DNA from: Candidatus Heimdallarchaeum aukensis
GTDB lineage: Archaea > Asgardarchaeota > Heimdallarchaeia > Heimdallarchaeales > Heimdallarchaeaceae
Direction: 5' to 3'
Length of the DNA: 64,000 nt
NCBI GenBank assembly: GCA_021513695.1
Contig: CP084166.1
Coordinates: 480,001-544,000, forward strand
Shown: positions 19,032 to 34,301 of the stretch, piece after piece
How the letters are laid out: each line of letters opens with the position of its first letter
How positions within the stretch are numbered: position 1 is the first letter of the stretch
Notes under the pieces: model-generated
Database searches by the model: none
Seen by the model: only the letters and a program-made list of their open reading frames with translations
What the model was told of the DNA's origin: nothing
Program-made: the position numbers and the translations under genes

Positions 19032-19052
19032 ATAACTTATGGAGTGCAAAAG

Positions 19053-19769: not shown

Positions 19770-20999
19770 CTAATCAACCATAAGTTTGGGAAATTTTGAA
19801 AGTTCCATTAATTTCATGAATTTTTTTCCTTTCTTAAAAATAGTATCTATACATTCAATTATTATATCCAAAAGCTCTTCTACTTTTTCTTTTTTTACAG
19901 GTTTTAGTCCATGAGCAAGTATTGATTCATTTCTCTCTTTTAAAAGGTCTTTCATTTTGTTGGATGAAGAAAACATTTTCCCAAGATCATCATTCAAATC
20001 GTCTAAAACTAGATAACAATCATATAATCCCAACTTTACTTTTGAACCATTACTTTTTCTTTCTTTGAAATAACTTATACGTTGAGAAGAAACTCCTAAC
20101 TTTTCTAATTGCTCTAAGGATATGTCATGGGGAGGTAAATTGTAGGCACTCTTTAATCTATACTGTGCCATAAGTTCTACAGCTCTGTAGAGCCTAGCCA
20201 TTGCATCATCAAACTTTTCTTCTTTTAATCGACGTTTTGCGTTATTTAATAAATCTGCAAGAAAATAAAGGTCTTTCTCTATTTTTTTATCACTTTTATG
20301 TAACAAGTCGCACAAAAATTCTTTATTAAAACTATATTCTTTGCCAAGCTGTTTCATTTTATCAAAAGCTTCTTTATGGTTAAATCTATCCCATAAACTA
20401 AAAGAATCAATTAAATTGTAATAGTATTCTTTTGTTTTGTCTCCGTTTAATAATACTATTTCATCTAAATAATTTCGTGCAGCATTATATCGATAATTAT
20501 TGAAAGATTCTTTCATTCTCCTTAACAATAATTTGTCATATACTGAATAAAGACTTTGCTCGACAATTCTTTCAGTACCTGAAAGAACAACACCATCTTT
20601 TCTTCTGCCTGAAATCAAAGTTAGTTTTTTGTGAAAAAGTACTGCAGCGATAGCTGCACTCATAGTCATTGTTTTTGTTCCAGAAGTATAGTCAATTATT
20701 ATTTCAGAATTGGAATACTTGTATATCTCATTCTGAATTAGTTGAAAACAACTATCAAAATCATCAATAGAAGTAAATTGAATAAATTCGTAAGAAGACA
20801 ATTCCTTGTTATACTGTGATTTATGTTGCCTTTCTATCTCCTTTATTGTTTTACGACTGTCTTCAGAACCAAAAAAAACAATATGATCAGGTTTATAGTG
20901 TTCAATACAAACTAGCAGTCCATGAGCTAAACTCTCAATTTTCTTGTCAACGTCCTCCCCTATTGCAGTTCCTACAGTCATAAAAAGAATACGTTTCAT
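19770..20999 (-). CDS. csx1: CARF-HEPN ancillary CRISPR ribonuclease (Csx1 / Cas02710-like)
   Basis: The N-terminal Rossmann-like CARF domain shows ILFMTVGTA and IIIDYTSGTKTMTMSAA. The C-terminal HEPN domain shows the R-x6-H motif ERNESILAHG. It lies immediately downstream of cmr6 on the same strand. Confidence 0.8.
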   Translation of the reverse strand: MKRILFMTVGTAIGEDVDKKIESLAHGLLVCIEHYKPDHIVFFGSEDSRKTIKEIERQHKSQYNKELSSYEFIQFTSIDDFDSCFQLIQNEIYKYSNSEIIIDYTSGTKTMTMSAAIAAVLFHKKLTLISGRRKDGVVLSGTERIVEQSLYSVYDKLLLRRMKESFNNYRYNAARNYLDEIVLLNGDKTKEYYYNLIDSFSLWDRFNHKEAFDKMKQLGKEYSFNKEFLCDLLHKSDKKIEKDLYFLADLLNNAKRRLKEEKFDDAMARLYRAVELMAQYRLKSAYNLPPHDISLEQLEKLGVSSQRISYFKERKSNGSKVKLGLYDCYLVLDDLNDDLGKMFSSSNKMKDLLKERNESILAHGLKPVKKEKVEELLDIIIECIDTIFKKGKKFMKLMELSKFPKLMVD

Positions 21000-21111
21000 G
21001 GTAAACCACTAACTAACTTTTAAAATAATTAAATCAAAATTTTTAAGCGTTACTAAAAACAAATATGTAAATAAAGCAATTACAAGGTAAAAATCCGTCA
21101 TCTTACTCAAC

Positions 21112-21930
21112 TTAAATTACTTTGAAACGGCCATAACCTAATGCAGTTTTTGCACCTAGTCCATGAATTTTCAATATGCCTGGCAGTAAGCTATTAATAA
21201 AATTCAAGTCTTCATCCATTTCAGTATAGTTTCTCTTTGGTAATAGCACAATTTGAAACTCTTGTTCAACATCAACAGCAAGAAACGGAATAGGAATAGG
21301 CTTCATCCAATCTCCTGGTGCTTCTTTTTCCAAATAATATTGTGAATAATGAGGAGTAATAATTTCTCCTTTTAATCTTGGAAATTTAGTTGGTAACATG
21401 TCTAAAAATATCATAGAACCAACTTCATTTGAGAGAGTTTTTTGATTTTCTTCTTTTGATAAAGAACCAAAAATTCTCTTTATTTGTTTTTTTTCGTTAT
21501 CGTCGTCCATTAGATCTATTATATAATCACGGATAGCACCTTTCAACGAGCTACCAGGTAGAAAAGGAACACCTAATGTATAGTGCCACAGAAAACCCAC
21601 TTCAATTGGATGTGGAAGACCAACACCTGTAATAAATGGAGTCAAAGTTCTAACATAAATAATTCTTCCATTTCGCTGTTCAGACAACAATAGTCTATGC
21701 TCAATGCATCTCTTAAGTAAAAAATTTTCATGTTTTACTTCATTATCAGTAAGTTTAGTAAAATGTTCAATCCATTTTTTCTTTCCCTCACTTATATATT
21801 CGATGTAATTATTTTTTTTCCACTTGTCAAAAAATTTTGAGTAGACTAAACCCTTGTTTGCACATTTATAGTTTTCATAGAAAAAGTTTTGTTCATTAAA
21901 CTTATGTCCTTTATAGATTACATTAGTCAG
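21112..21930 (-). CDS. cmr6: Cmr6 (type III-B RAMP subunit); start uncertain (CTG 21930-21928 or an indel-corrected ATG 21937-21935)
   Basis: PFLPGSSLKGAIRDY and the C-terminal glycine loop GLGAKTALGYGRF are present. The frame stays open for 81 codons upstream of the called TTG. That extension contains Cmr6-like N-terminal sequence (NKGLVYSKFFDKW) but no in-frame ATG/GTG/TTG. Confidence 0.8.
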   Translation of the reverse strand: MTNVIYKGHKFNEQNFFYENYKCANKGLVYSKFFDKWKKNNYIEYISEGKKKWIEHFTKLTDNEVKHENFLLKRCIEHRLLLSEQRNGRIIYVRTLTPFITGVGLPHPIEVGFLWHYTLGVPFLPGSSLKGAIRDYIIDLMDDDNEKKQIKRIFGSLSKEENQKTLSNEVGSMIFLDMLPTKFPRLKGEIITPHYSQYYLEKEAPGDWMKPIPIPFLAVDVEQEFQIVLLPKRNYTEMDEDLNFINSLLPGILKIHGLGAKTALGYGRFKVI

Positions 21931-22325
21931 TTTTCATTCACCTCAACCTTGGCTTGAGCTAGTTTTTTTAGCCATCCAAGGAACTCTAAAGTTTCTATCT
22001 GTGCAAGAATATACTCATCTTGTGTTGCATTTGTAATGTTATAAATTAAATCATTAGAATCTGTAAAAATATTCACCTTTTTTAACCATGTTTCTATAAT
22101 ATCAACAATTTTTTTATGGGCCTTTTTATCGCCATTATCGGGTTTAGGAGTTGCACTTGCTAGTTCCATTGCAATGGCTTGTCCAAGACCATTCATTACA
22201 ATTGTAGCTGGTAAACTTTTCACATAACTTAAAAAGCTTGAATTGTTTATTTCGTCATCATCAATTACTTCATTTATTGATGCTAAAGCAAATTTAGCCC
22301 TATCGTTATCTGATAAAAACTCCAG
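21927..22325 (-). CDS. cmr5: Cmr5 (small alpha-helical subunit); start uncertain (CTG 22325-22323)
   Basis: LPATIVMNGLGQAIAMELA matches the Cmr5 P-x-M-I-x-x-NGL-x-Q core. The frame is open for 35 codons upstream of the called GTG and encodes DRAKFALASINEV, which is typical of Cmr5 N-termini. Confidence 0.75.
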   Translation of the reverse strand: MEFLSDNDRAKFALASINEVIDDDEINNSSFLSYVKSLPATIVMNGLGQAIAMELASATPKPDNGDKKAHKKIVDIIETWLKKVNIFTDSNDLIYNITNATQDEYILAQIETLEFLGWLKKLAQAKVEVNEN

Positions 22326-22327
22326 AT

Positions 22328-23227
22328 TTATTCACCTCCTTTATCTGCATCAATTTTATCTATATGATGAATGATTTTTTCTGCATAATCCAGTTTTACA
22401 TGAAACCAACCTTGACCAACAGTTTCATTTCCTCCGATCTGGAGAAAACAACTATTAGTTAATAAATTGTCCAAAAAATCAATTCCATCTTCCTCAGAAA
22501 AAACTAAGCAATACATTAGAGTATCAGAGGAAATGTACTCTTCGTACCACAAATTTCTGCTTGACTTTGTCTCTGAATTTAATATATTCCTTGCTCGTAT
22601 TTCTAACCCAAAATTTGCGAACCATTTAAAATCATCATTATGAAGTATAACAAGCTGGTCTTTTAGTCTGTTCCTTACATCATCATCGGGTATCATAGCT
22701 GATAATAAATTAGCCAAATTGTCTATACCTTCACTTTCTTCTTTTTCAAATTGCCGTTCTTCAAGAAAAATATATTGTTCATTCACACAAGATAGAGTTT
22801 TTCCTCTTGTCACTTCGGGAATTGTAAATGAATATTTTATTCCTAAGCGTTTTAGGTCTCTTTTCAGTCTTTCTAATATATATGGACAAGTAATCCATCT
22901 ATAATTCGTCAATAAACTTCGTACTGGTAGCAATAGTAAGCGTGCATCAGAAATTAATAATTTTCCAGCAGAATCAGAACTTCCAAAGTACTTATCAACC
23001 TTTTTATTTGTTATATTAGAATTAACACCAACATTCTCATTAGCTAAACCACGCAGTGAGCCTTTTAAACTAGTGCTTGGTATGAAAGGATAACTTGTAA
23101 TTGTTTCACGAGCTACGGGACAATCTACTATTGATGTAGGATGTCCAGTTCCTGTATGAACAAATGTTTCAGCCAACATTTTCATTATTTTCCCTTTTAA
23201 ATTCGACTTCTTTTCATTTTGTTCCAT
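22328..23227 (-). CDS. cmr4: Cmr4 (backbone RAMP, target-RNA cleaving subunit)
   Basis: Motifs seen: FVHTGTGHPTSIVDCPVARE, IPSTSLKGSLRG, and C-terminal IGGNETVGQGWF. ATG 23227 is preceded by GAGGTGA with a 5-nt spacer and follows the cmr3 stop. Confidence 0.85.
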   Translation of the reverse strand: MEQNEKKSNLKGKIMKMLAETFVHTGTGHPTSIVDCPVARETITSYPFIPSTSLKGSLRGLANENVGVNSNITNKKVDKYFGSSDSAGKLLISDARLLLLPVRSLLTNYRWITCPYILERLKRDLKRLGIKYSFTIPEVTRGKTLSCVNEQYIFLEERQFEKEESEGIDNLANLLSAMIPDDDVRNRLKDQLVILHNDDFKWFANFGLEIRARNILNSETKSSRNLWYEEYISSDTLMYCLVFSEEDGIDFLDNLLTNSCFLQIGGNETVGQGWFHVKLDYAEKIIHHIDKIDADKGGE

Positions 23228-23228
23228 A

Positions 23229-24371
23229 TTAATCACCTCTTTCCCATTTTCCAAAAAGAAATTGTCCAAATCCAAATTCAGTTAATTTACCTATTTTATT
23301 GGAAACCAATCTTTTTAATGAAGATGTATTTTTTTCATCAAAAAAGAATGTAGACCCTGGAGGAATAAAAGGTCTGACTTCTAGAGGTTCTTTTTTTACT
23401 GCATTCCATCCTCCAATGCGAAGAATATCACCAATGTTAGCACCTATAACCTCAGAACCAAACTTTTTTGACAAAAATGTCATAACTTCATCTAGAGAAT
23501 CTCCTAAATATGCAGGAGTAATAAATGTAATTGTAAAATTATCAGAAACTGTTGAAATAGGGGGTATTTTATCAATTACTGGGAATTCTATTTCCTTGTA
23601 ACTAATATTAGCTATCTTTCCTTCTCCACCTATACGGTTACACCAATTTTCAATTGAGTCAAGTAAATCAATACCATTGACTTTCATACAAAGTACAATA
23701 TTTTCTAACCTTATCATTTGACGCGAAAATAAATTTCCAGTAACTGCAGTATTGGTTGTAGGATCTATTTCAATACCAATCTCATTTTCTTTTTGCCATA
23801 ATTTATTCTCAGAGAGAAAACGAACATTTTTAAGACTTTCAGAAGAAAAGGACAATAATCTTTCTAGATCATCAAATTTAACATAATAATTTTGTAATGT
23901 TTTATAACCATAATTACCACTTCTTCTTGGAAGTAAAATACTCTTTCTATCATGTTTGTCTTTACTTATACTTGACAAATACTTTTGTTTAGAAGGAATT
24001 AAATAATCCAGATCTACAATCTCTTCGTTTTTTTGAGAGGAAATGTGTCCAATTATATGTAAAGGAACAGGAAATAAAGGATGAAATTGATTATCCTCTT
24101 TTAATAATAAGTAAGGACCAAAAAAGTCTAAAGGCCCAAGATCGGTACCATCACCCAATTTACTAATTATATTTTCATCCCATTTACTGCTTCCATCCCA
24201 TCCATAATATCGAGCTAGTAAGGATCTTATTAGTCCAGTAATTGAAAATGGAGATGGTGGAAAAACACTTTTAACAAAATCTGACGAACTATCACTTTTA
24301 TAGAAAGAATAGTTTCCTCTAAAAAACAACCTATCTAAAGGTTCAATTATGAAACACTGTTCCTTAGCCAT
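23229..24371 (-). CDS. cmr3: Cmr3
   Basis: N-terminal FIIEPLDRLFFRG and C-terminal EFGFGQFLFGKW are present. It sits between cas10 and cmr4. An alternative ATG exists at 24389. Confidence 0.8.
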   Translation of the reverse strand: MAKEQCFIIEPLDRLFFRGNYSFYKSDSSSDFVKSVFPPSPFSITGLIRSLLARYYGWDGSSKWDENIISKLGDGTDLGPLDFFGPYLLLKEDNQFHPLFPVPLHIIGHISSQKNEEIVDLDYLIPSKQKYLSSISKDKHDRKSILLPRRSGNYGYKTLQNYYVKFDDLERLLSFSSESLKNVRFLSENKLWQKENEIGIEIDPTTNTAVTGNLFSRQMIRLENIVLCMKVNGIDLLDSIENWCNRIGGEGKIANISYKEIEFPVIDKIPPISTVSDNFTITFITPAYLGDSLDEVMTFLSKKFGSEVIGANIGDILRIGGWNAVKKEPLEVRPFIPPGSTFFFDEKNTSSLKRLVSNKIGKLTEFGFGQFLFGKWERGD

Positions 24372-26373
24372 TTTTATTACCAACCCCATGTTGATAAAGA
24401 AATTTTATAATATCAAGAAAACTTATAAAAAACTCATTTTCAGAGCTTTCAGGTATATACTCATTATTCTCATCTAATACTCTATATGACCGCTTCATTA
24501 GTTTAATCAATAAGCAAATAGTGGAATCTAATTTTTCGTTATTTAATTTTCTGTTTTCATGAGTAACAAATTCAGATTTTAATACTGTACTCAAATCTTT
24601 TCCAAAATCAGATATCTTTACAACATTTAGAGATTTACTTATTTCTTTATTTTCGTTTAATTTTCTAAAGACATTTCTAATTCTATACAATGCTCCTATC
24701 GAAAGATCGACATTAGAATCATAAAATAATTCAGAAATAAATTTCTCAAAATCATATCCATTTTTCTCAATAGAAGAAATAACGTCAAAAGTTGTTACAT
24801 ATTGATATTCTTTAGTTCCTCCTTTTAATAATGAAATTGCAATACTAGATCGACCATTATAATCTTTTGCAACTTCATCCAAAAGATAATGAGCTTTTTT
24901 CAAGACATCTTGTAAAGGATCATTAAAATGAGCGAAAACAATTCCTGCGGACATTGTTGCTTTTTTAGCATGCTTATCCATTTCTTCAACAAATCTATTA
25001 TTAATTGAAATTGCACATGAAATAACTTTATTTATTGGAACAAAAGCTAGAACATCGTCACCTCCAGCGTAAACAAGTACTCCATTATAATTTCTTACAA
25101 TTTCTTCTACTTCAATTGCAAATTTGGCAAGAATCTTACTAACTTTTTTTATAGCTTCTTTTTCTCCTTTTTCTTTCAATTTTTTGATAACATCACCTAT
25201 TTTATCACCATCCATTATCAGAACAGAGTAATAAGGTGATGGTATTATTTCACACTTATCGTAAATATTATCAACAAGATTTTTAGAAAGTTTTTTTCGA
25301 TATTCTTCGTATTCGGATGGAAACATAATTTTATTCTCATTTTTTAATAAGTCAGTATAATAAAGTTGAGCATCTAACTGAAAGAAAGGTTTGATTGCCT
25401 TTGCATCTTCTGATGCTCCTTCTTTATTGAAATTAAAATCAAACCATTGAGTAACATTAGGTCTTTTCAAATGTGATAAATCTTTGACTTTTTTAGCAAA
25501 ACTAATCAAAGATTTTCTCAATTCTAAATCTGTAGCAGCTTTTTCTTCTAACATGAACAACCAAGGTAAAGCTGCAATATAAACCGTTGAGGGCCAGTTT
25601 AGTATAGTTTTGCTTTTTAGAATTTCTTCTGAACATAAAGGAAACAATCGTTTTATTAATGCAATAGAAGAAAGCCTTTCATCATCTTTTAGTACGTATT
25701 TTAAAATATTTTTTCTAACTCGTTCCCAAAATGCATCTTGCTTATCTTTTTCACTTGTACTTTTTCCTCTGATAAAACCCGATAATTCTTGCCAATTTCC
25801 CATCATTTTACAACGATCACCCTTCTCAACAGGGAAAGAAAAAGGTGACCAAAGTTTAAAGTTAGAGAAATATTTTATTTCTTCTTCATTTTCTACTATT
25901 AACCATCGTATATTCCAAAAATTACTAGTTTGTCTAGCCCAAATCTTCTTTACTTCTGGATATTGTTTTTCTAGACTTGAAAAATATCTATCCCAAATCG
26001 TATCACAAATCCTCAACCATTCATTTCTAACAACAATTTCTGCTTTTTTAGCTAATTGAAAAGGATCTTTGCTTTTAGTTTTTATCACAGCTTGGTTTGG
26101 AATTGAACCTACTTTTGGGACTCCTTCAAGACCTTTGGTTTCATTCTTATCTGATTTTTCTTTTAAAGCATTTATAAAGGAATAAAATTCATTTCCATCT
26201 AGATTAGGCGATTCTATTGTTCCTCCAGAAATCATAAATTCATGCAATGCAACCCCAGTTAAGTAAGAAAGCAAATAAGAACCTACCCATAAATCTTGAG
26301 TCTTTCTAGCTTGTGCAATAAAAGACTGAACTGGGCCTATGGAAAAAATAATTGTAGTCTCATTAGTATCCAT
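24364..26373 (-). CDS. cas10: Cas10/Cmr2, short form without a recognisable N-terminal HD domain; GGDD cyclase motif intact
   Basis: The protein starts directly with FSIGPVQSFIAQARKTQDLWVGSYLLS. Palm motifs LIMDGDKIG and VYAGGDDVLAFVP are present. Length is 669 aa. Confidence 0.9.
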   Translation of the reverse strand: MDTNETTIIFSIGPVQSFIAQARKTQDLWVGSYLLSYLTGVALHEFMISGGTIESPNLDGNEFYSFINALKEKSDKNETKGLEGVPKVGSIPNQAVIKTKSKDPFQLAKKAEIVVRNEWLRICDTIWDRYFSSLEKQYPEVKKIWARQTSNFWNIRWLIVENEEEIKYFSNFKLWSPFSFPVEKGDRCKMMGNWQELSGFIRGKSTSEKDKQDAFWERVRKNILKYVLKDDERLSSIALIKRLFPLCSEEILKSKTILNWPSTVYIAALPWLFMLEEKAATDLELRKSLISFAKKVKDLSHLKRPNVTQWFDFNFNKEGASEDAKAIKPFFQLDAQLYYTDLLKNENKIMFPSEYEEYRKKLSKNLVDNIYDKCEIIPSPYYSVLIMDGDKIGDVIKKLKEKGEKEAIKKVSKILAKFAIEVEEIVRNYNGVLVYAGGDDVLAFVPINKVISCAISINNRFVEEMDKHAKKATMSAGIVFAHFNDPLQDVLKKAHYLLDEVAKDYNGRSSIAISLLKGGTKEYQYVTTFDVISSIEKNGYDFEKFISELFYDSNVDLSIGALYRIRNVFRKLNENKEISKSLNVVKISDFGKDLSTVLKSEFVTHENRKLNNEKLDSTICLLIKLMKRSYRVLDENNEYIPESSENEFFISFLDIIKFLYQHGVGNKNG

Positions 26374-27569
26374 TATATCTCCTCTTTACAATCAAATCTA
26401 TCAAAAAATGAATCTAAAAACGACCAATTTACTGCTAAAGGGACTTCTGTTGAATTTACTATTTTTTTTACTGTTCTATTACGAATTCTGTGTTGTTTTG
26501 TTGCTATAATTTTGAGTTTATTGTTCTGTAAAAATTTGGATTTTAATATCAAACCTATTGCAGCATAATGCTGTTGAACTTTAATGATTTTTATGAAAAG
26601 CGGGCTTGCTCTTCTAGTTGCACTATTTGAAAATGGTGATATCATTACACTTGTTTTATTGCTCTGAAAATAATAATTATGAGGTAAGCCAAAAATAATA
26701 CGTTCAGGATGCTCTTCAATTTTATTTTTATTAGTAAAATCAAGCATTAGATCATGATCTCTCTTAAAGTTTCTCTCAGCTCTTATTCCTCCTGGTAGTT
26801 CTCCACTATCCCCATAACTTCTATATTTTAATAACTCAAATCCAATAGAATTTAACAATTTATTAACATCACTGTCAATTTTTAATAAACAAGCCCTAGA
26901 ATACCTTGAAAAACGGGAATACAGTAAATCATTAATTTGTATCTGGTCTTCTTCTTTAAATTCAGCAAGAAAGTTCTCAATATTAATTTTTAAATCTTTT
27001 ACATTCTTTGATTGGATATATTCTAGCTCATCACCATTTTTTATCTCTTCAATATGAAATGATCCTAACCCTCGTCTAGATCTTGCGCCTATACCTCCAA
27101 AATAACTGAGAGCTATTAGAGCTTTAATAATAGAATTTTTAATGGATTTTTTACATTTTTTATTCAAATTTCTAAAGTAGATATTTATTTTTCCATTAAC
27201 AGGTGGTAAAACATATTCCTTAATATCATCTTTATGTTTTTTAATACCATATGTTAAATAACTTAATCCATATTCATTTTTTCCATATCCTTTAAAATGA
27301 CCCTTTTTGAAGTAATCTACCTCTGCATTTAATATCACCTTAGATTTACCAACGGACTTATCTGTGCTACTGAAAATCATAGTTTCATTACGATATAATT
27401 CATCTATAGTTTTTAGCTTAAAGTATTTCCAAGCTATCGCTCGCCACCAGAATCTTAAAGCCCCTTTAAAACTAGAAAGTCTAAATTCTGCTTTAGACTG
27501 ATCATAGCCGCGTAAAAATAGAGGAGTAACTATTTCAAACTTAACTGAAATATGTTCATACTCTTTCAC
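26373..27569 (-). CDS. cmr1: Cmr1 (double RAMP)
   Basis: Motifs seen: IVTPLFLRG, FRLSSFKGALRFWWRA, and the glycine loop YFGGIGARSRRGLGSF. It is the first gene of the operon. Confidence 0.85.
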   Translation of the reverse strand: MKEYEHISVKFEIVTPLFLRGYDQSKAEFRLSSFKGALRFWWRAIAWKYFKLKTIDELYRNETMIFSSTDKSVGKSKVILNAEVDYFKKGHFKGYGKNEYGLSYLTYGIKKHKDDIKEYVLPPVNGKINIYFRNLNKKCKKSIKNSIIKALIALSYFGGIGARSRRGLGSFHIEEIKNGDELEYIQSKNVKDLKINIENFLAEFKEEDQIQINDLLYSRFSRYSRACLLKIDSDVNKLLNSIGFELLKYRSYGDSGELPGGIRAERNFKRDHDLMLDFTNKNKIEEHPERIIFGLPHNYYFQSNKTSVMISPFSNSATRRASPLFIKIIKVQQHYAAIGLILKSKFLQNNKLKIIATKQHRIRNRTVKKIVNSTEVPLAVNWSFLDSFFDRFDCKEEI

Positions 27570-27836
27570 AATTATGACACCGTCAGCAATACAATTATTA
27601 TTTTATCTATTGTTTTTTATTTATAAGTTTAGTCTAATATTTTAAACAAAGTGTAATTTTAAATTTAAAATTTAAAAAAGCAATTATTTATTTATGATAG
27701 TCCTCATTACGTTTTATTTTTAGTAAAAATAGTTGTTTTAGTTAATCTTTTTTAAATGTAAAAGATAAATACTAATTTTTTCTATTAAATGGTTTAAATA
27801 CTTTTTTAAAGAAAGTATTACCTAATACATATAATT

Positions 27837-28391
27837 ATGTGTGAGCTAGTATATGTAACATTAGCTGGTTCTTCTAAAAAAGCTATTGTAAACTCAATAT
27901 ATTTTACAGTAAAAGAATTTATTAAAAAAAATATTAAATCAGTTGAAAAATTGTCAATTTTGATAATAAAATCAAATACAAGTCCAATAAAAAAAGAGTC
28001 TATAAAAACTTCTATAACAGAATATTTTAGTCTATCAAAAGAATTATCGGATATCAAAATTGAATTTTTCGAAGAAAAAGTAGTTCCAGAGCATATGTTA
28101 ATAGATATTTTTAAAGAGATTCAAAATGAACTTGTTCCTTTTTTAGACAATAATCAAAATAAGCTAATTATTGTAGATTTGACCGCATCAAGAAAAATAA
28201 TGTCGATAGGTCTCACTCTAAGTATTATTGAGTATTGGAAAAAGAAAAAAAACAACAATGTTTTTGTGTCCTATTACTTACTTAAGAAATTTTACGACAA
28301 TAAAGAGAAAATAACTATAGAATTATTTCCTGATGAATTCTCCGTTGAAATATGGTCTATCAAAGATTTAGAGGTGATCTTTAGTGAATGA
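27837..28391 (+). CDS. Small Rossmann-like protein, possible stand-alone CARF-type sensor domain
   Basis: VYVTLAGSS and LIIVDLTASRKIMSIGLTLS parallel the csx1 CARF motifs (FMTVGTA; IDYTSGTKTMTMSAA). It is divergent from cmr1. Its 3' end overlaps the next gene's GTG by 8 nt. Confidence 0.4.
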   Translation: MCELVYVTLAGSSKKAIVNSIYFTVKEFIKKNIKSVEKLSILIIKSNTSPIKKESIKTSITEYFSLSKELSDIKIEFFEEKVVPEHMLIDIFKEIQNELVPFLDNNQNKLIIVDLTASRKIMSIGLTLSIIEYWKKKKNNNVFVSYYLLKKFYDNKEKITIELFPDEFSVEIWSIKDLEVIFSE

Positions 28392-28980
28392 TAAAGAAAC
28401 AGAACTATATTTTGCTCAGTTTTTTGAAAAATTTCTAAAAAACAAAGAAATTATCATTAAAGGTTACAATGAAAGCAAAAATAGTGAATTTGAAATATCT
28501 TTCTCTGAACCGAAATTAATTTTCACTGGTGGTTTGCTCAATAGTACCATTCGAGATCTACTCTTTAATATAGCTATAGACAAAAATCAATTTGCTAAAA
28601 ACTATGAAGAACTAATTAGTGCAATTAATGAGGAATATATCATCGCAAAAAAGGATAATCGAATTCTAGCTTTGGGTATTGATACCAATATAATCTATTC
28701 AGGAGTTCTACTTACTGGATTATACAAACGTTTAATGAAAAAATTAGACTGGAAATTCCCTTTAATTGTAATCTCACATACCACTTCAGAAGAAATTCAC
28801 TATAAACGAGCTTCTAAATATAAAAATCCAACTTTAAATCAATTTAAAGCTAATATTCAGAAACAATCTGAAAATATTCAAAGTTTATTAAATAAAGTAT
28901 TTGCTGAAGAAGGAATGAATATTTCAGAAAGTGTTTATAGAAATCTACTTGATAGAGATGGTAGATTAGGCCATCTCTAG
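28384..28980 (+). CDS. Hypothetical protein with a PIN-like nuclease core (tentative), possibly disrupted at the 3' end
   Basis: GAGGTGAT lies 5 nt before GTG 28384. LALGIDTNIIY gives a PIN-like first acidic motif and ISHTTSEEI a second. A further 46-codon ORF in another frame (28992-29132) follows the stop. Confidence 0.35.
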   Translation: MNDKETELYFAQFFEKFLKNKEIIIKGYNESKNSEFEISFSEPKLIFTGGLLNSTIRDLLFNIAIDKNQFAKNYEELISAINEEYIIAKKDNRILALGIDTNIIYSGVLLTGLYKRLMKKLDWKFPLIVISHTTSEEIHYKRASKYKNPTLNQFKANIQKQSENIQSLLNKVFAEEGMNISESVYRNLLDRDGRLGHL

Positions 28981-29200
28981 GAGTATACAAATTGCTCTTA
29001 CATCGCATTAAAATGAATACAATTGTAATAAAATCAATTCACCCTTATTACTCTGGAAAGTTTTCCAATAATGGAAATGTTCCTAGAGAAATTGGTGCAA
29101 TATATGATTCTTTAGTTTGCATTAATTCATAACTCTAGAAGAAGGATTTTTGAACAAGATTAAATTAAAAAAAAAAAAGGATATAGAGAAAGTTGAGTTG

Positions 29201-30718
29201 TTACCAAATGAAGTCTACTATTAAGTTTCCAAGTGTCCAAGTAGATGGTAAAATACCAACTGATGCCAGAGCACACCATGCATCATACGCAAATCCAATA
29301 CCATACACAGGTTCTAAAGCATCACCAATACCAGCATCAATAACATTTGCAACAATAGTTTTCATTTCACTTGTAGAAATAGTACCGTCGTCAACAAGAG
29401 CGATTGCAACAGAAATAACACCTGTAGCAAGCATAGATATACATGGTGAAAAATAACTCGTTTTAAGAGCGTTTTTTAGGATATTTCTTATTTCTTCTTC
29501 AGTTATAGTGTCAGTAGGGGATACCTTAAACAAGTTTCCAATTAATTCATAGGTAGCATCTTTTATGTGTGCACCTGTGCTCCCTATTATTTTATCAGTG
29601 AAGTCTCTTAATGCTTTTGCCATTTTTCCTGCGGTTTCTGTGGAATGAGAAAGATAATAACTATTACAGTATCCCTTAATGTCTTCAATGACTTTTAGAG
29701 TATTATCTACAAGTTGATAACTATTCAATGAAGCTTTGATATCAGAGGTATCTGATGTTCTATCGCTAGCGAATGCCATTATAAATTCCCTGATTTCTCC
29801 AGAACCATCACCCCAACTAAATACATCTTTTGCTAGTATTTTCCATTTAAGGGGTCTGTGGGCGTAAGAAGGATTGTTTACTGATATCGTGAATTCAAGA
29901 GTTTTTTCTCCAGGATCTGGATTGGAAGAGCTATGTCTGTCCCATAATTGTGCTATATACACATTTTCATTATTAACAGCATCGTAGTAACCCAAATACA
30001 CATCAAGTTGAGTCCAGTCTGAGTATGATATCCTTGTCTTTACATATATATAATCAACATATACATTATCTGGTACGTAATAGTTATATATTGAAGCATA
30101 AGCCATAAAGGGATCGTCTAATTCTACTTCATTGTGATAAGTACTATCGAAGTAATAAGCATCTCTTGATACTGCTACAGAACCTTCACCCCCCTCACCG
30201 CCATATGGACTGTTTGTTTCATACTGACTATTTCCGCCTATTCCAGTTGTAATCGCGATAGACCAATAATCGATATATCCTTTATCACCGCTAGCACAAT
30301 CTTCTACGCGTAATTTCCATGTACCATAACAGTTGAATCCTTTAAAATAACTTGTAATAACGAAATCCTGATGGATGTCATCTGAGCTACCACCTTCTCT
30401 GTCCCAAATTTGATAAGTTAACCCACTAGGACTGACAACCCATATTTTTAGGTCTCCAATCCATGTATGAATAATGCTCACGTAAACTGAAACAGTATCT
30501 ATAGAATCAGATTTTGAGATATATATATAGCTTTCTGTTGTAGAATGATCATAGATATTATAGTTTGATCCATTGGACCCCTGTGTACCTGCAGCACTTG
30601 TAGCGCTAGTTGGCATTATGAATGTATTTTGAGGAATCACTGTTACTATCATTAATGCTAATATAGACAGACTTATTAAGTAGATTTTTGATTTAGATTT
30701 TAATTTCATGTTATCCAT
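29201..30718 (-). CDS. Secreted or membrane-anchored protein with two proprotein-convertase-type P domains and no protease domain
   Basis: The N-terminal signal/anchor is KIYLISLSILALMIVTVIP. The P-domain consensus is IIHTWIGDLKIWVVSPSG...GTWKLRVEDCASGDKGYIDYWSIAI. A second, weaker copy runs WTQLDVYLGY...WKILAKDVFSWGDGSGEIREF. Confidence 0.7.
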   Translation of the reverse strand: MDNMKLKSKSKIYLISLSILALMIVTVIPQNTFIMPTSATSAAGTQGSNGSNYNIYDHSTTESYIYISKSDSIDTVSVYVSIIHTWIGDLKIWVVSPSGLTYQIWDREGGSSDDIHQDFVITSYFKGFNCYGTWKLRVEDCASGDKGYIDYWSIAITTGIGGNSQYETNSPYGGEGGEGSVAVSRDAYYFDSTYHNEVELDDPFMAYASIYNYYVPDNVYVDYIYVKTRISYSDWTQLDVYLGYYDAVNNENVYIAQLWDRHSSSNPDPGEKTLEFTISVNNPSYAHRPLKWKILAKDVFSWGDGSGEIREFIMAFASDRTSDTSDIKASLNSYQLVDNTLKVIEDIKGYCNSYYLSHSTETAGKMAKALRDFTDKIIGSTGAHIKDATYELIGNLFKVSPTDTITEEEIRNILKNALKTSYFSPCISMLATGVISVAIALVDDGTISTSEMKTIVANVIDAGIGDALEPVYGIGFAYDAWCALASVGILPSTWTLGNLIVDFIW

Positions 30719-30910
30719 TTCTTCTCACCTGTCGTAAGTAGAGGCATCCTCATACTCAAATGGGATGCCAATTTATATTTCACTACCGTTCTTTAAAAAT
30801 CAATTGTGCTTATAAGCAAAGCCTAATCTTGTTTTAATCACCATCAAGAACTTTTATGAATATAAAAAGAAGAAAGCTTTTTATTGTTGTTATCATATTA
30901 AAATTTATTA

Positions 30911-33541
30911 GTGAGGTTCACAGCAGCAAATAAAATATTATTGTCTCTTTTATTCAATGATTGTGTTCATATGTCTAATTCCCATCAATATAATGTTAGC
31001 TATTATGCTACACAGCGTGGAATAGCTGAAAGTACAGGTATTCCTCTGACAAATATCCCTAGAACCCTAAAAATGTTAATTAAAAAAGGATTTGTAGAAC
31101 AAAGTATGGGGTATACAAAAGATGCAATAAGAAGAAGAAAAGTGTATTTTCTCACAGAAATTGGAAAAAAAATGGCACAAAACCTTTACCATGAGCTATT
31201 AGAGCAAGAAATTACAATAATTAATAAACACGGTAAGAGTGAATTACATCCATTTAATGAAGTAGCGAAATTATATAATGTAGACGTTATAAAGATACTT
31301 AGAAATTTGGATTTGCAAGGAAATATTATGCTGGAAGAGCTTGTTCAAAATAACAATGAGGCTAATAAAGTTTATTTTCTTAATTATACACCAGAAGAGA
31401 ATTTTTTTTTCGGAAGAAAGGAAGAATTAGAAAAAATCAGAAGATTTATTGAACACGAACACAAAAAAGTTATAGCTGTATACGGTATTGCAGGTATAGG
31501 AAAGACCTCGTTGATATTAAAAATAATGCAGAATTATAGAAAGAATTACAATATTTTTTATTATAGATTACACGAGTGGGACAGCTTACGAAGTGTGTTA
31601 ACTTCATTATCTGACTTTTTAAGTAGGCTTGGAAAGAAAAGTTTGAGAAAATATTTGAATAATAACAGACCTTGCCTTGATGAAGTTCAAGCAATATTAA
31701 GAAAAGAATTAATGAACGTTAATTCTCTGTTGGTAATCGACGAAGTTCAAAACATTGCGAGCGATGAAATAGTTGATTTACTAAAATATCTTATAATAAT
31801 CTTTTGTGCTGAAATTGAGAATTCAATCCTTATTTTCGCCAGTAGAAAGAGGGTTAATTTCTACTCAATGAAACATACTCTAAAACGAAGCATCGGAGAA
31901 ATTGTTTTGAATGGGCTGGATAGGGAATCAAGTAATAAAATAATTGAGAAGAATATAAATATAAGAAACTTTGAGGAAATTTATAATATTACACAGGGAC
32001 ATCCCCTTGCTCTTAGATTCATAAGTAATTGCAATACGTTAAAGAAAGGAGAAAAAAACATCCTGAATTATGCATTCAATGAAATATATGACAATCTCTC
32101 ACCAAAAGAGAAAGAATTGTTATTTTTTCTCTATACATGTCGATATCCAGTGACAACTCAAATGCTTTTAGATAATAACTTTTCTTATGAAACTTTCCAA
32201 AGACTCTATAACAAAAGCTTTTGTTTTAAAACAGTTTTAGGTAATGTGCAACTACATTATATCCTTCGCAGCTTCCTTCACAAGCTTTTCTCACATAGTA
32301 TATCAGAAAACACGCAAATAGTAACTAACATAAAGATTGCAGAATATTATAGAAAAAATAAAACACCCTTGAACATTATTGCTGCTATATATCATTATTT
32401 TCATGCAAAAGAACACGAACAAGCTATAAAGCTAGCGATTCAATATGAGGATCTAATTATCGAAAATGGTTATTCTCAAGAGTTGATAGATATTTTAGAA
32501 ACGTTTGAAAAAGATATTATTTTAAAAGAAGATTGGAAGAGTATACTACAACTCAAAGGTAACGCGTATAATGCAATAGGAAAAATAAATTATGCGTTAA
32601 ATTTATACTTACAAGTCTTGGAATTATGCAAGAATACAGAAAAACCAGAAATAGAGCTTTTATTGGAAATAGGAAAATTGTATTTGAAAAAAAACGCATT
32701 TGATATTGCTTTAGATAAATATATCGAATGTTTAAGAAATGCAAAAGAAAGTGATAATAAAGAGAACATTGCTTATAGTTACTATTATATAGGAAAAACC
32801 TACTGGAAAAAAGGAAATCTTAAAAAATCGATTAGATGTTTGAAGAAAGCTCTTAGGTTCAGTAATCAAACCAACAATCTACACCTTAAAGGAAAAATCT
32901 ACATGGATTTTGCGATGGTATATTCTCTCAGAGCAATGTGGCAACAAGCAATAAATAGTTCTCTTCTAAGTCTTGAATTATTAGAAAGAACAGGCAATTA
33001 CTATGAGATAAGTAAGGCGTATAATAATATTGGAGTAATCTATTCCTCTAGGGGAGATTATGAGAAAGCAATTTATTACTACGAAAAACAATTAAGATGT
33101 GCAGAGAAATACGACTTTATACGAACAAAAGTTTATGCTTTTTGTAATATTGCATGGGCAATTGCTAATAAAAATAATGTATCTAAACAAGAGTTAGAGA
33201 AAGCAATAGGTTTATGCTCACAAGCTTTTGATATCTCACGACATCTTAAGGATGATAGGATAACAGCAGGTCTCTACACAGCTTATGGTTGCTTATTTGC
33301 AAAAATGCAAAAGTGGGCAAAAGCTATCCATTACTTTAATCATGCAATCAACTACTTAGAAAAAGAGAAGGATATCCTTCTCCTTCCTCGAATATTTTTT
33401 TGGTTTGGAAAAATCTATAAAGAGAAAGGCGATATAGCCAATGCTAAGAAATATTTTAACAGAGCTTATAAATATTATAAAAGAAGAAAAAACCGAATAA
33501 GAATTAAAGAGATTGAAGTTGAATTAGAAACATGTGTTTAG
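30911..33541 (+). CDS. STAND ATPase: N-terminal winged HTH, NB-ARC-like NTPase, C-terminal TPR array
   Basis: The wHTH is QRGIAESTGIPLTNIPRTLKMLIKKGFVE. Walker A is YGIAGIGKTSL (from about nt 31484) and Walker B is LLVIDEVQ. A GxP motif (QGHPLAL) lies about 170 aa after the P-loop. The C-terminal ~400 aa have repeated TPR-like A/Y/G periodicity. Confidence 0.75.
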   Translation: MRFTAANKILLSLLFNDCVHMSNSHQYNVSYYATQRGIAESTGIPLTNIPRTLKMLIKKGFVEQSMGYTKDAIRRRKVYFLTEIGKKMAQNLYHELLEQEITIINKHGKSELHPFNEVAKLYNVDVIKILRNLDLQGNIMLEELVQNNNEANKVYFLNYTPEENFFFGRKEELEKIRRFIEHEHKKVIAVYGIAGIGKTSLILKIMQNYRKNYNIFYYRLHEWDSLRSVLTSLSDFLSRLGKKSLRKYLNNNRPCLDEVQAILRKELMNVNSLLVIDEVQNIASDEIVDLLKYLIIIFCAEIENSILIFASRKRVNFYSMKHTLKRSIGEIVLNGLDRESSNKIIEKNINIRNFEEIYNITQGHPLALRFISNCNTLKKGEKNILNYAFNEIYDNLSPKEKELLFFLYTCRYPVTTQMLLDNNFSYETFQRLYNKSFCFKTVLGNVQLHYILRSFLHKLFSHSISENTQIVTNIKIAEYYRKNKTPLNIIAAIYHYFHAKEHEQAIKLAIQYEDLIIENGYSQELIDILETFEKDIILKEDWKSILQLKGNAYNAIGKINYALNLYLQVLELCKNTEKPEIELLLEIGKLYLKKNAFDIALDKYIECLRNAKESDNKENIAYSYYYIGKTYWKKGNLKKSIRCLKKALRFSNQTNNLHLKGKIYMDFAMVYSLRAMWQQAINSSLLSLELLERTGNYYEISKAYNNIGVIYSSRGDYEKAIYYYEKQLRCAEKYDFIRTKVYAFCNIAWAIANKNNVSKQELEKAIGLCSQAFDISRHLKDDRITAGLYTAYGCLFAKMQKWAKAIHYFNHAINYLEKEKDILLLPRIFFWFGKIYKEKGDIANAKKYFNRAYKYYKRRKNRIRIKEIEVELETCV

Positions 33542-33562
33542 TTTAACTTTTGTAAGTTATTT

Positions 33563-33838
33563 ATGCAATTTTCATTGTTTACTTACACAAACAAGTTGAT
33601 ATTAACAAAAGATAAGCAATTATATTCTCTGTTAAAGAGGACTGGAATACGTAGCGAATATATGGAGCTACCTAAATCAAGAGAAATAGCCAATAAAATT
33701 AAAATAACATACAATCAGTTTTCATATCTTGCTCGAGAATTGTTAGTATTATCTCCTTATTTAATAATAGAAGTAGATAATAAATCAATAGTACTAACAA
33801 TGAATTGGTTTGGACATGAAAAAGAAAAAATGGTATAG
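33563..33838 (+). CDS. Hypothetical small protein
   Basis: This is a 91-aa ORF with no recognisable motif. Coding status is uncertain. Confidence 0.3.
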   Translation: MQFSLFTYTNKLILTKDKQLYSLLKRTGIRSEYMELPKSREIANKIKITYNQFSYLARELLVLSPYLIIEVDNKSIVLTMNWFGHEKEKMV

Positions 33839-33932
33839 AGGAGTAAAACGCTACAACAAAAATTGATGGTAAAGTTAGACATTTGTGTATTAAATGAAAT
33901 AAATATACTTATACAATATGAGCTATTGCGAT

Positions 33933-34301
33933 TTATAATTCTTCTAATTCATATTCTGTAACTTCTTTTTTAAATTCTTCTTCAGTTAATAGTACAACAT
34001 CAAAATCTAAATCTTCTATTTTCATATTAATAACATTGTATGAACTACCAATTTCAATATGAGCTTTAGGAAACCCATACTTGAGATTGGATGCAATCAT
34101 AGGATAAATATTCTTTTTAGGAGGATCTCCTGCAACAGTAAATATGATGTCTAAATCACTCTTATTACGATGATTCCCTCTTCTTCTTGAACCAGCTCTT
34201 GCTATTCCACTAACTCTAAGTCCAGTATTGTTTTTTATGAAATTTCCAATACTTCTCCACAACTTTGCATATCTCTGTTCAAATTCAGGTCTTTCAGCCA
34301 C
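33933..34301 (-). CDS. Minimal nucleotidyltransferase (Pol-beta superfamily, MNT-like)
   Basis: AGSRRRGNHRNKSDLDIIF matches the GS-x(9-10)-SD[LI]D signature. Length is 122 aa. Confidence 0.7.
   Translation of the reverse strand: MAERPEFEQRYAKLWRSIGNFIKNNTGLRVSGIARAGSRRRGNHRNKSDLDIIFTVAGDPPKKNIYPMIASNLKYGFPKAHIEIGSSYNVINMKIEDLDFDVVLLTEEEFKKEVTEYELEEL

What the first reader, a model, noticed from the sequence alone, without database searches (positions are those of the whole stretch)
27837..29132. Divergent two-gene unit next to cmr1: small CARF-like protein translationally coupled to a PIN-like protein
Seen: ORF 27837-28391 has VYVTLAGSS and IVDLTASRKIMSIGL, echoing the csx1 CARF motifs. Its stop overlaps the GTG (28384, with a GAGGTGAT SD) of a 198-aa ORF carrying LGIDTNIIY and TSEEI, which are PIN-like acidic motifs. 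A 46-codon ORF in another frame (28992-29132) may be a displaced C-terminus. Established: CARF domains sense cOA, and CARF fusions to HEPN, PIN-like and other nucleases are known ancillary effectors. Small CARF proteins can also act as ring nucleases. Inference: this is a split sensor/nuclease effector or a ring nuclease plus toxin, possibly a second cOA output of this locus.
Basis: partly seen in the sequence, partly recalled or inferred. Interest (0 to 1): 0.6.

Follow-up and report, generated by a model that had tools for sequence, protein, structure and literature searches.

The report
Broken two-gene CARF plus PIN effector
Next to a type III-B CRISPR locus in a Heimdall-group archaeon lies the remnant of a rare two-gene signal-activated nuclease (a small CARF sensor plus a separate PIN nuclease): the sensor gene is still whole, but the nuclease gene is dead, cut by a frameshift and a 4.4-kb insertion.

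Summary
The ORFs, motifs, 8-nt overlap and Shine-Dalgarno site are all as described. ORF1 (27837-28391) is a CARF protein: every PADLOC hit is a CARF family, and its family profile is closest to Crn1-type ring nucleases. ORF2 (28384-28980) is only the first 198 residues of a 347-389 aa PIN protein. The 46-codon ORF is the next ~47 residues in a shifted frame, not the C-terminus. The following ~96 residues, which carry the last catalytic Asp, lie 4.4 kb downstream at 33551-33841. A two-gene insertion separates them (a secreted P-domain protein and a STAND-TPR NTPase). ORF2 is therefore a pseudogene in all assemblies compared, and one sister strain also has frame-breaking deletions in ORF1.

Intact versions of the pair exist in about six loci, including Ca. 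Heimdallarchaeum aukensis. They are tightly coupled and collinear with the known CARF_m1 CARF-PIN fusion family. The PIN partner's model is structurally closest to SiRe_0806, a PIN protein crystallised with cA4. Elsewhere the pair sits in a CBASS operon or in viperin/Mokosh-like islands, not next to cas genes.

Verdict: a decayed copy of a new split variant of a known effector kind. It is not an active second cOA output.

The parts
27837..28391 (+). ORF1, 184 aa: small stand-alone CARF protein, apparently full length. Motif I is G11-S12-S13. Motif II is D114-L-T-A-S118-R-K-I-M, with Ser where 6 of 7 family members have Gly.
   Evidence: 10 of 10 PADLOC hits are CARF, best 3.3e-5; 34% identity to the H. 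aukensis 179-aa protein, E 2e-26.
28369..28376 (+). GAGGTGAT Shine-Dalgarno-like site, 7 nt before the GTG start of ORF2. The ORF1 stop overlaps the ORF2 start by 8 nt.
   Evidence: sequence. Tight coupling is kept in homologous loci: ATGA overlaps in L005 and L007, and a 10-nt gap with GAGGA in L003. The site is mutated to GAGGGGAT in strain L002.
28384..28980 (+). ORF2 piece A, 198 aa: the N-terminal domain plus the first half of the PIN domain. It carries invariant Asp (GIDTN) and Glu (SEEIH) and ends in the GRLG motif and a TAG stop.
   Evidence: relatives are 364-389 aa; P0004 residues 9-200, E 4e-31.
28980..29120 (+). ORF2 piece B, 47 codons in a shifted frame. Two extra bases (TA, 28978-28979) break the frame. 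It carries the third invariant Asp (IYD).
   Evidence: P0005 residues 203-250, 44% identity; gapless across the junction.
29121..33550 (.). ~4.43-kb insertion that splits ORF2. It holds a secreted P_proprotein-domain protein (29201-30718, minus strand) and a wHTH-STAND NTPase-TPR protein (30911-33541, plus strand), transcribed divergently. No recombinase gene and no terminal inverted repeats. There is at most a TTTG(Y) duplication at the ends.
   Evidence: Both junctions are present in L002 and L009, and the left junction in L001.
33551..33841 (+). ORF2 piece C, 96 codons plus stop: the last PIN strand with the fourth invariant Asp (YTNKLILTKD) and most of the C-terminal domain. It ends ~25 residues early. 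Other assemblies call most of it as a 91-aa gene (window 33563-33838).
   Evidence: (P0005 residues 253-342, E 1e-14; P0004, E 2e-13).
33838..33897 (+). Possible remnant of the ORF2 tail in yet another frame, with an internal stop (tentative).
   Evidence: EE*NATTKIDG..KVRHLCI against P0004 EESLAEGKIHG..IKHIWI, E 0.45 only. The position and order fit, but the statistics do not.
19770..27569 (-). Adjacent type III-B locus: csm6-like TIGR02710 CARF-HEPN (19770-20999), cmr6 (21112-21690), cmr5 (~21927-22223), cmr4 (22328-23275), cmr3 (23229-24389), cas10/cmr2 with GGDD (24364-26373) and cmr1 (26373-27569). It is divergent from ORF1 across 267 bp.

Best explanation
The region is the decaying remnant of a two-gene effector that responds to a cyclic-oligonucleotide signal.

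In its intact form (seen in Ca. Heimdallarchaeum aukensis and a few metagenomic loci), a ~180-aa CARF protein and a ~350-390-aa PIN-domain protein are made from tightly coupled genes. Together they correspond, domain for domain, to the single-chain CARF_m1 CARF-PIN effectors.

Inferred mechanism of the intact module:
- The CARF subunit dimerises and binds a cyclic oligoadenylate, most likely cA4. The signal is made by Cas10 or, in one locus, by a CBASS CD-NTase.
- Binding switches on the partner's metal-dependent PIN nuclease, probably through oligomerisation, as reported for a CRISPR-associated PIN nuclease.
- The nuclease degrades RNA non-specifically.
- The CARF motifs resemble Crn1, so the sensor may also cleave its ligand and so limit the response.

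In this genome the nuclease gene is dead. It has a 2-nt frameshift at 28978-28979, a 4.43-kb two-gene insertion at 29121-33550 and a premature stop at 33839. These split the four invariant acidic residues over three reading frames. ORF1 is still intact but carries Ser in place of the family's conserved motif-II Gly. It is frame-broken in L002 (56-bp deletion plus a stop) and, if a 1-nt poly-A difference is real, in L001 too, so it is probably drifting towards loss. The working cOA output of this Cmr locus is the intact Csm6-like CARF-HEPN protein.

Shown: homology, domain identity, collinearity with the fusion family, gene disruption and strain decay. Inferred: the ligand, the activation mechanism, RNA as substrate, and the present non-function of ORF1.
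For: ORF1 is CARF:
- All 10 PADLOC hits are CARF families.
- Homologues reach 3e-10 to 7.6e-10 against CARF_m1 families.
- The family profile hits the 7z55 chain at 6.4e-4 (labelled only 'CRISPR-associated protein'; probably the small ring nuclease Sis0455, my inference) and Crn1/Sso2081 at 1.6e-3. It also hits the N-terminus of SiRe_0806 at 0.041.
- The model has beta-alpha-beta topology.

ORF2 family is PIN:
- The top five Foldseek hits are all SiRe_0806, including the cA4 complex.
- DTN, E, D and T/SxD are invariant.

Collinear with the fusion family PDLC01973:
- ORF1-like proteins match profile positions 4-141.
- P0006 matches positions 235-323 (2.6e-6).
- P0004 matches positions 338-417 (9e-4).

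The pair is conserved and coupled in L003/L004, L005, L007, L010 and L011. Association with signal generators: Cmr here, and CD-NTase plus E1-E2 in L011.

Disruption:
- tblastn and a gapless reconstruction show the three pieces.
- The same structure is in L002 and L009, and the frameshift and left junction are in L001.
- L002 adds 56-bp, 1-bp and 32-bp deletions and a stop codon. All frame-breaking indels in 6.5 kb fall in these two genes.

Literature: Crn1 motifs I and II (PMC10018336). cA4-driven oligomerisation activates a CRISPR-associated PIN nuclease (Wang et al., NAR 2025, gkaf744, as cited in PMC13577387 and bioRxiv 10.64898/2025.12.27.695470).
Against: - No experiment or expression data.
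- Window ORF2 on its own has only a PIN_3 hit at E 0.22. Its assignment rests on homology to P0004-P0006.
- Both AF2 models are of low to moderate confidence (pLDDT 54 and 66), and Foldseek E-values are weak.
- ORF1 is intact here and in L009, so it may still be functional.
- pN/pS values rest on about 13 substitutions per gene and do not distinguish ORF1/ORF2 from their neighbours.
- The 1-nt ORF1 frameshift in L001 lies in a poly-A run and could be an assembly error.
- The CARF-PIN paper itself could not be read, so equating it with SiRe_0806 is an inference.
Confidence: 0.8

Rival explanations
1. ORF1 survives as a stand-alone Crn1-like ring nuclease or cOA sponge. It would tune the neighbouring Cmr/Csm6 system and would have been kept after its PIN partner was lost.
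For: - ORF1 is full length against its homologues.
- Its size (184 aa) and motifs match Crn1. Motif I is G-S-S against G-T-S in Crn1, and motif II is S-R-K against G-R-K (PMC10018336).
- The best PDB sequence hits of the family profile are Crn1 (Sso2081) and 7z55, probably Sis0455.
- It is divergent from cmr1 across only 267 bp.
Against: - The conserved motif-II Gly is Ser only in this copy.
- ORF1 carries a 56-bp deletion and a stop in L002, and a 1-nt frameshift in L001.
- pN/pS is ~0.8.
- Family members score far below the NCBIfam Crn1 cut-off: 22.7 bits against 125.
- In every other locus ORF1 comes with the PIN partner, which argues for a sensor role.
Confidence: 0.25
2. One reading: ORF1 plus the 198-aa ORF2 is a working split sensor/nuclease effector that gives this Cmr locus a second cOA output.
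For: - CARF and PIN assignments.
- A strong SD and overlapping stop/start.
- Adjacency to cmr1 and a Cas10 with GGDD.
Against: - The 198-aa product has only two of the four invariant PIN acidic residues and about half the fold.
- All intact relatives are 347-389 aa.
- The remaining pieces are out of frame and 4.4 kb away.
- Sister strains degrade both genes further.
Confidence: 0.04
3. A VapBC-like toxin-antitoxin pair unrelated to cyclic-nucleotide signalling, with ORF1 as the antitoxin and ORF2 as the PIN toxin.
For: - A small upstream gene overlapping a PIN gene is the classic VapBC layout.
- There is a weak Arc/RHH-like similarity inside the PIN insert.
Against: - ORF1 is a CARF domain, not an RHH, AbrB or HTH antitoxin.
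- The PIN partner is ~365 aa with extra domains and is collinear with CARF-PIN fusions.
- One locus is a CBASS operon.
- The RHH signal is not significant: hhalign gives 19% and Pfam finds nothing.
Confidence: 0.03

Closest known systems
SiRe_0806 of Sulfolobus islandicus (PDB 9jxw; 9jxx with cA4). Probably the 'CRISPR-associated PIN nuclease' of Wang et al., NAR 2025, gkaf744.
   Same: - Its N-terminus carries the CARF motif matched by the ORF1-family profile.
- It binds cA4, according to the PDB entry title.
   Different: - It is a single ~410-aa chain, whereas here CARF and PIN are separate proteins totalling ~545 aa.
- There is no detectable sequence similarity to the PIN part.
- The ORF2 family has an extra ~90-aa N-terminal domain and a ~70-aa insert inside the PIN domain.
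- The copy in this window is a pseudogene.
PADLOC family PDLC01973, 'CARF_m1--CARF_PIN' (465-position profile). The family name follows the clade naming used for CARF proteins; the source classification paper was not held.
   Same: - ORF1-like proteins match profile positions 4-141.
- ORF2-like proteins match positions 235-323 and 338-417.
- The order is the same as in the fusion.
   Different: - The genes are split in all six loci seen.
- Matches are weak (E 1e-3 to 1e-9).
- Window ORF2 itself gives no hit.
Crn1 ring nucleases (Sso2081 and Sis0455, CARF_m13)
   Same: - Similar size: ~180-aa CARF-only proteins.
- Motif II is nearly identical: DiTaGRKiMSvAa against DITGGRKSMSVAA.
- Motif I is G-[ST]-[ST] (PMC10018336; PMC9638899).
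   Different: - Scores are far below the NCBIfam Crn1 cut-off.
- ORF1-type proteins are always paired with a PIN gene.
- PADLOC places them nearest CARF_m1, not CARF_m13.
Csm6/Csx1 CARF-HEPN effectors, including the TIGR02710 protein at 19770-20999 in this window
   Same: The logic is the same: a CARF sensor of cOA controls a non-specific nuclease next to a type III locus.
   Different: The nuclease is PIN (metal-dependent) rather than HEPN, and the sensor and nuclease are separate chains. Similarity to the local Csm6 is limited to the CARF motif region.
CBASS effector modules (nuclease effectors next to a CD-NTase and Cap2)
   Same: In L011 the pair occupies the effector position beside a CD-NTase cyclase and an E1-E2 protein.
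   Different: The sensor is a classic CARF rather than SAVED, and it is a separate subunit.

Membership tests
CARF domain superfamily (ORF1) | Profile-HMM match to CARF families | tested here: met
   Window ORF1: 10 of 10 PADLOC hits are CARF, best 3.3e-5. Homologues reach 3e-10 to 7.6e-10. Pfam and NCBIfam hits are only sub-threshold.
CARF domain superfamily (ORF1) | Rossmann-like beta-alpha-beta fold | tested here: inconclusive
   The single-sequence AF2 model has alternating beta/alpha elements but pLDDT 54. Foldseek finds no hit at E<=0.001. The best TM-score is to the CARF protein Cdn1 bound to cA4.
CARF domain superfamily (ORF1) | Motif I (G-S/T-S/T after beta1) and motif II (D-x-T-x-G-x-K after beta4) | tested here: met
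   G11-S12-S13 and D114-L-T-A-S-R-K are present. The motif-II Gly is Ser in this copy only. Motif definitions are from PMC10018336.
CARF domain superfamily (ORF1) | Binds a cyclic oligoadenylate | not testable with these tools
   Needs biochemistry.
PIN domain nucleases (ORF2) | PIN fold | tested here: met
   [not shown]
PIN domain nucleases (ORF2) | Four conserved acidic residues in one polypeptide | tested here: not met
   The family has invariant D (DTN), E, D ([YH]D) and D (T/SxD). In the window they are spread over pieces A, B and C, in three frames and 4.4 kb apart.
PIN domain nucleases (ORF2) | Profile-HMM match to PIN families | tested here: inconclusive
   Window ORF2 hits PIN_3 at E 0.22. 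P0006 hits PIN_4 at E 0.044. P0006 and P0004 match the PIN part of PDLC01973 at 2.6e-6 and 9e-4.
CARF-PIN fusion effectors (PDLC01973 / SiRe_0806-like) | CARF and PIN in one polypeptide | tested here: not met
   There are separate genes in the window and in L003/L004, L005, L007, L010 and L011.
CARF-PIN fusion effectors (PDLC01973 / SiRe_0806-like) | Same domain order and homology of both halves | tested here: met
   There are collinear matches to profile positions 4-141 and 235-417. SiRe_0806 is the top structural hit.
Crn1 ring nuclease | Passes the curated NCBIfam Crn1 model (NF040581, cut-off 125 bits) | tested here: not met
   Window ORF1 gives no hit. The best family member scores 22.7 bits.
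Crn1 ring nuclease | Cleaves cA4 | not testable with these tools
   The motifs are compatible (PMC10018336), but activity needs an assay.
Type III CRISPR-Cas ancillary gene | Recurrent genomic linkage to cas10 loci | tested here: not met
   The pair is adjacent to cmr1 only in this organism. No cas genes are visible in L003/L004 (18 kb), L010 (12 kb) or L011 (a CBASS operon). The sample is very small.
VapBC toxin-antitoxin | Upstream partner is a DNA-binding antitoxin (RHH, AbrB or HTH) | tested here: not met
   ORF1 is CARF.

The most novel reading that the evidence does not exclude
The intact ORF1/ORF2-type pair would be a previously undescribed two-subunit form of CARF-PIN effector. It would be portable between signal generators: type III Cas10 here, a CBASS CD-NTase in L011, and viperin/Mokosh-like islands in Heimdallarchaeum aukensis and L010. 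Its Crn1-like CARF subunit would both sense and destroy the signal. In this genome the orphaned CARF gene might then persist as a ring nuclease after an insertion killed its nuclease partner.
Probability: 0.3. Interest if true: 0.5.

Novelty: new variant of a known kind. Interest (0 to 1): 0.32.

Why it matters
CARF-PIN effectors are among the least studied cOA outputs. Within the literature I could search, a single 2025 report (Wang et al., NAR 2025) plus the PDB entries 9jxw/9jxx were all I found.

A naturally split version, with sensor and nuclease as separate chains, would allow direct tests of how ligand binding in one subunit switches on a PIN active site in another. Its presence beside both Cas10 and a CBASS cyclase would illustrate effector sharing between the two signalling systems in Asgard-lineage archaea.

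For this window the practical message is cautionary. The locus should be annotated as a pseudogene split by an insertion, with one remaining CARF ORF, and not as an extra active effector.

Tried and rejected
1. Word-indexed homology search: ORF2 found nothing, and ORF1 found only near-identical strain copies. The exhaustive HMMER search was needed.
2. GTDB genome scans with both family alignments found nothing. The metagenome scan with the ORF2 alignment also found nothing.
3. Viral contig scans found nothing.
4. Terminal inverted repeats or a target-site duplication for the 4.4-kb insertion: there is only an 8-bp TTTAGTTT repeat, at chance level and off the junction, plus a possible TTTG(Y). 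The insertion mechanism is unresolved.
5. 'Catalytic Asp to Gly' in piece B (IGAIYD): rejected. That Asp is Asn in P0017, and the invariant Asp is the next one, which is retained.
6. RHH/Arc-like domain inside the PIN insert: PDB profile E 0.02-0.04, but hhalign probability is 19% and Pfam finds nothing. It remains a lead only.
7. The 366-aa neighbour in L003 as a paralogue of the PIN protein: no similarity.
8. pN/pS between the window and L002: too few substitutions to discriminate.
9. Rfam scan of 19-36 kb: nothing. The sigma-70 promoter/terminator scan was uninformative for an archaeon.
10. The afdb50 fold library was unavailable.
11. The Makarova 2020 CARF classification and the Wang 2025 paper are not held.
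12. No CRISPR array was found in the window.
Full report
OBSERVATION

The window is AT-rich (~30% GC). The region is 96-98% identical at the DNA level to contig L002. The NCBI record for the L002 copy of ORF1 names the source as a Candidatus Heimdallarchaeaceae archaeon MAG (taxonomy).

- ORF1 runs 27837-28391 (184 aa) and contains VYVTLAGSS and IVDLTASRKIMSIGL.
- A GTG at 28384 overlaps the ORF1 stop by 8 nt. GAGGTGAT (28369-28376) lies 7 nt upstream of it.
- A 198-aa ORF2 contains LGIDTNIIY and TSEEIHY.
- A 46-codon ORF lies at 28992-29132 in another frame.

With about 8% stop codons expected at this base composition, open frames of 184-198 codons are not chance (my arithmetic). Homology confirms this.

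On the other strand, directly upstream, lies a complete type III-B set. It comprises cmr1, cas10/cmr2 (GGDD present, no HD domain hit), cmr3, cmr4, cmr5 and cmr6, plus a TIGR02710 Csm6-like CARF-HEPN protein. No CRISPR array is in the window.

ORF1 IS A CARF PROTEIN

Pfam and NCBIfam give nothing for ORF1. All ten of its PADLOC hits are CARF families, the best at 3.3e-5. Its best PDB sequence hit is the CARF domain of Card1, aligned on the motif ...TGGTKIMS (E 0.12).

A single-sequence AF2 model is of low confidence (pLDDT 54) but shows alternating strand/helix topology. Foldseek finds nothing significant. The best TM-score is to the CARF protein Cdn1 bound to cA4 (Cdn1 is a DUF1887 CARF nuclease, PMC12825302).

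The case becomes firm through homologues:
- A 179-aa protein of Ca. Heimdallarchaeum aukensis, UJG40390.1, is 34% identical (E 2e-26).
- Further relatives occur in L005, L006, L007, L010 and L011.
- These hit dozens of CARF families, at up to 3e-10 and 7.6e-10. The closest are the 'CARF_m1' families, including 'CARF_m1--CARF_PIN'.

A profile of the family finds two kinds of chain in the PDB. It hits small CARF proteins: Crn1/Sso2081 at 1.6e-3 and the 7z55 chain at 6.4e-4. That chain is labelled only 'CRISPR-associated protein' and is probably Sis0455 (my inference). It also hits the N-terminus of SiRe_0806 at 0.041.

The family's motif II (DiTaGRKiMSvAa) is almost the Crn1 motif (DITGGRKSMSVAA), and its motif I is G-S/T-S/T. 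These are the two motifs reported as critical for ring-nuclease activity (PMC10018336). The proteins nonetheless score far below the curated Crn1 and Csx14 cut-offs. The window copy alone has Ser in place of the motif-II Gly.

ORF2 IS THE FIRST HALF OF A PIN-DOMAIN PROTEIN

On its own, ORF2 has only a PIN_3 hit at E 0.22, and the word-indexed search found no homologues.

The exhaustive search of 1.84 billion representatives found three full-length relatives. These are P0004 (364 aa, 37% identity, E 1e-25), P0005 (366 aa, E 1e-19) and P0006 (389 aa, E 3e-4). A cluster look-up added P0017 (347 aa). All are about twice the length of ORF2.

P0006 and P0004 match the PIN half of the PADLOC CARF_m1--CARF_PIN profile. 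P0006 matches positions 235-323 at 2.6e-6, and P0004 matches positions 338-417 at 9e-4. The ORF1-type proteins match positions 4-141 of the same profile. The two genes are therefore collinear with a known single-chain CARF-PIN family.

An AF2 model of P0005 (pLDDT 66) gives these results:
- A long series of PIN domains follows: MJ1533, PINc, Nmd4, Rrp44, AF0591, EST1A, Utp24, Nob1 and VapC.
- The top five Foldseek hits are all SiRe_0806 chains, including the entry 'SiRe_0806 in complex with cA4'.

The family has invariant DTN, E, [YH]D and T/SxD, the usual PIN acidic quartet.

[quoted passage not shown] It is cited in PMC13577387 and in bioRxiv 10.64898/2025.12.27.695470. I could not read it. 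That it describes SiRe_0806 is my inference from the release dates of the PDB entries.

THE NUCLEASE GENE IS BROKEN INTO PIECES

tblastn of the full-length relatives against the window shows three collinear pieces:
- Residues 1-~200 match 28384-28977.
- Residues ~203-250 match 28980-29120, in a frame shifted by two extra bases (TA, 28978-28979).
- Residues ~253-342 match 33560-33829 (E 1e-14 and 2e-13), immediately after the stop codon of the STAND gene.

Joining 28384-28977, 28980-29120 and 33551-33838 gives a 340-aa sequence. It aligns to the family without a gap at the frameshift junction and with a one-residue offset at the insertion junction (LVC|CKLF against LIAYEF). It stops about 25 residues early. 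A possible remnant of the tail, with another frame change and a stop, follows at 33838-33897, but it is not statistically supported.

The gene was split by a clean ~4.43-kb insertion (29121-33550). The insert carries two divergently transcribed genes:
- a secreted P_proprotein-domain protein (29201-30718, minus strand);
- a wHTH-STAND NTPase-TPR protein (30911-33541, plus strand).

I found no recombinase, no terminal inverted repeats and at most a TTTG(Y) duplication, so how the insert arrived is unknown.

The four invariant acidic residues survive but now sit in three different frames. One earlier idea is withdrawn: a Gly in IGAIYD does not replace a catalytic Asp, because that position is Asn in P0017.

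THE ARRANGEMENT IS REAL AND DECAY CONTINUES

A second assembly, L009 (Logan, SRR15988954), matches window 20359-34509 at 100%. It has the same gene calls: 184, 198, 505, 856 and 91 aa.

L001 (99.9% identical) and L002 (96-98% identical) share the frameshift and the left junction. L002 also shares the right junction.

L002 has in addition:
- a 56-bp deletion that removes the ORF1 CARF motif II;
- a stop codon in ORF1;
- 1-bp and 32-bp deletions in ORF2;
- a mutated SD.

Every frame-breaking indel in the 6.5 kb compared falls in these two genes, and none falls in the 4.1 kb of neighbouring coding sequence. L001 has a 1-nt deletion in a poly-A run of ORF1, which may be an assembly error. pN/pS values (0.79 and 0.47, against 0.65 and 0.34 for the neighbours) rest on too few changes to be informative.

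CONTEXT OF INTACT PAIRS

The pair is rare. Searches of very large collections turned up about six loci. In these the two genes are always adjacent and tightly coupled, either by ATGA overlaps or by a 10-nt gap with GAGGA.

The neighbourhoods are:
- Ca. H. aukensis (L003/L004): between two helicase-PLD (Mokosh-like) modules, near a viperin and a Csa3-like CARF regulator. No cas genes lie within 7-10 kb.
- L010: the same radical-SAM/helicase/~360-aa/PLD set flanks the pair. A second CARF protein lies directly upstream and a NYN nuclease downstream.
- L011: the pair is followed directly by a CD-NTase oligonucleotide cyclase (E 3e-31) and an E1-E2 (Cap2-like) protein. This is a type II CBASS layout with the pair in the effector position.

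The link to type III CRISPR is therefore specific to this organism. The broader link to cyclic-oligonucleotide signalling and defence islands supports the sensor-nuclease idea.

MECHANISM AND VERDICT

The intact module most likely works as follows. All steps here are inferred.
- A CARF dimer binds a cyclic oligoadenylate, cA4 by analogy with SiRe_0806 and Crn1.
- Binding activates the partner's metal-dependent PIN nuclease, probably by ligand-induced oligomerisation.
- The CARF subunit may also cleave the ligand.

In this window that module is a relic. The nuclease is a pseudogene split by an insertion, and the CARF gene is the only intact part. ORF1 may be a residual ring nuclease or sponge (about 25%) or simply not yet degraded. 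The Csm6-like protein is the functional cOA effector of the locus.

The split architecture is a new variant of a known kind. Interest is modest.

Noticed in passing
window 29121-33550: A compact 4.43-kb two-gene cassette sits exactly inside the PIN gene. It holds a secreted P_proprotein-domain protein (minus strand) and a wHTH-STAND NTPase-TPR protein (plus strand), transcribed divergently, with both 3' ends abutting the junctions. No recombinase gene or terminal repeats were found, and its means of insertion is unknown.
   Followed up: partly
window 14992-17692 and 17688-20388: A 2.7-kb tandem duplication at 99.9% identity. It copies an alpha/beta hydrolase gene, a biotin-lipoyl protein gene and the 3' half of csm6, which creates a HEPN-only csm6 fragment at 17074-17661. 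Contig L009 ends at the repeat boundary, as expected for a true repeat, but an assembly artefact is not excluded.
   Followed up: partly
window 5393-7385 and 7386-9378: A 1,993-bp tandem duplication at 100% identity spans the junction of two very large ORFs (2998-7518 and 7577-15538). A phosphopantetheinyl transferase gene lies nearby at 17680-18234. The large ORFs were not examined.
   Followed up: no
L011 1-3784: A CBASS-like operon in which the CARF plus PIN pair takes the effector position. The order is CARF (partial), PIN (P0004), CD-NTase cyclase (SMODS plus OAS1_C), then an E1-E2/Cap2-like protein.
   Followed up: partly
L003 3099-9404 and L010 1900-8620: The same four-gene set recurs next to the pair in two different organisms: a radical-SAM viperin-like protein, an AAA_11/12 (MkoA-like) helicase, a ~360-aa unknown protein and a PLD nuclease. 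This may be a conserved defence module.
   Followed up: no
window 28825-28977 (ORF2 residues ~148-198) and the same region of P0004: The ~70-aa insert inside the PIN domain resembles the Arc repressor. An example is NKVFAEEGMNISESVYRNLLDRDGRLG against RKVAEENGRSVNSEIYQRVMESFKKEGRIG. The PDB profile E-value is 0.02-0.04, but hhalign probability is 19% and Pfam gives no support. The AF2 model is disordered in this region.
   Followed up: partly
window 33933-34301 (minus strand) and 34532-34921 (plus strand): A small nucleotidyltransferase (NTP_transf_2) gene and an unassigned 129-aa ORF lie just beyond the last PIN fragment. This could be another small defence or toxin-antitoxin element.
   Followed up: no
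L001 and L002 contig starts (window 27804 and 27672): Two other assemblies break inside the 267-bp cmr1-ORF1 intergenic region, whereas L009 spans it. This may reflect strain variation in whether the Cmr locus is present next to the pair.
   Followed up: no
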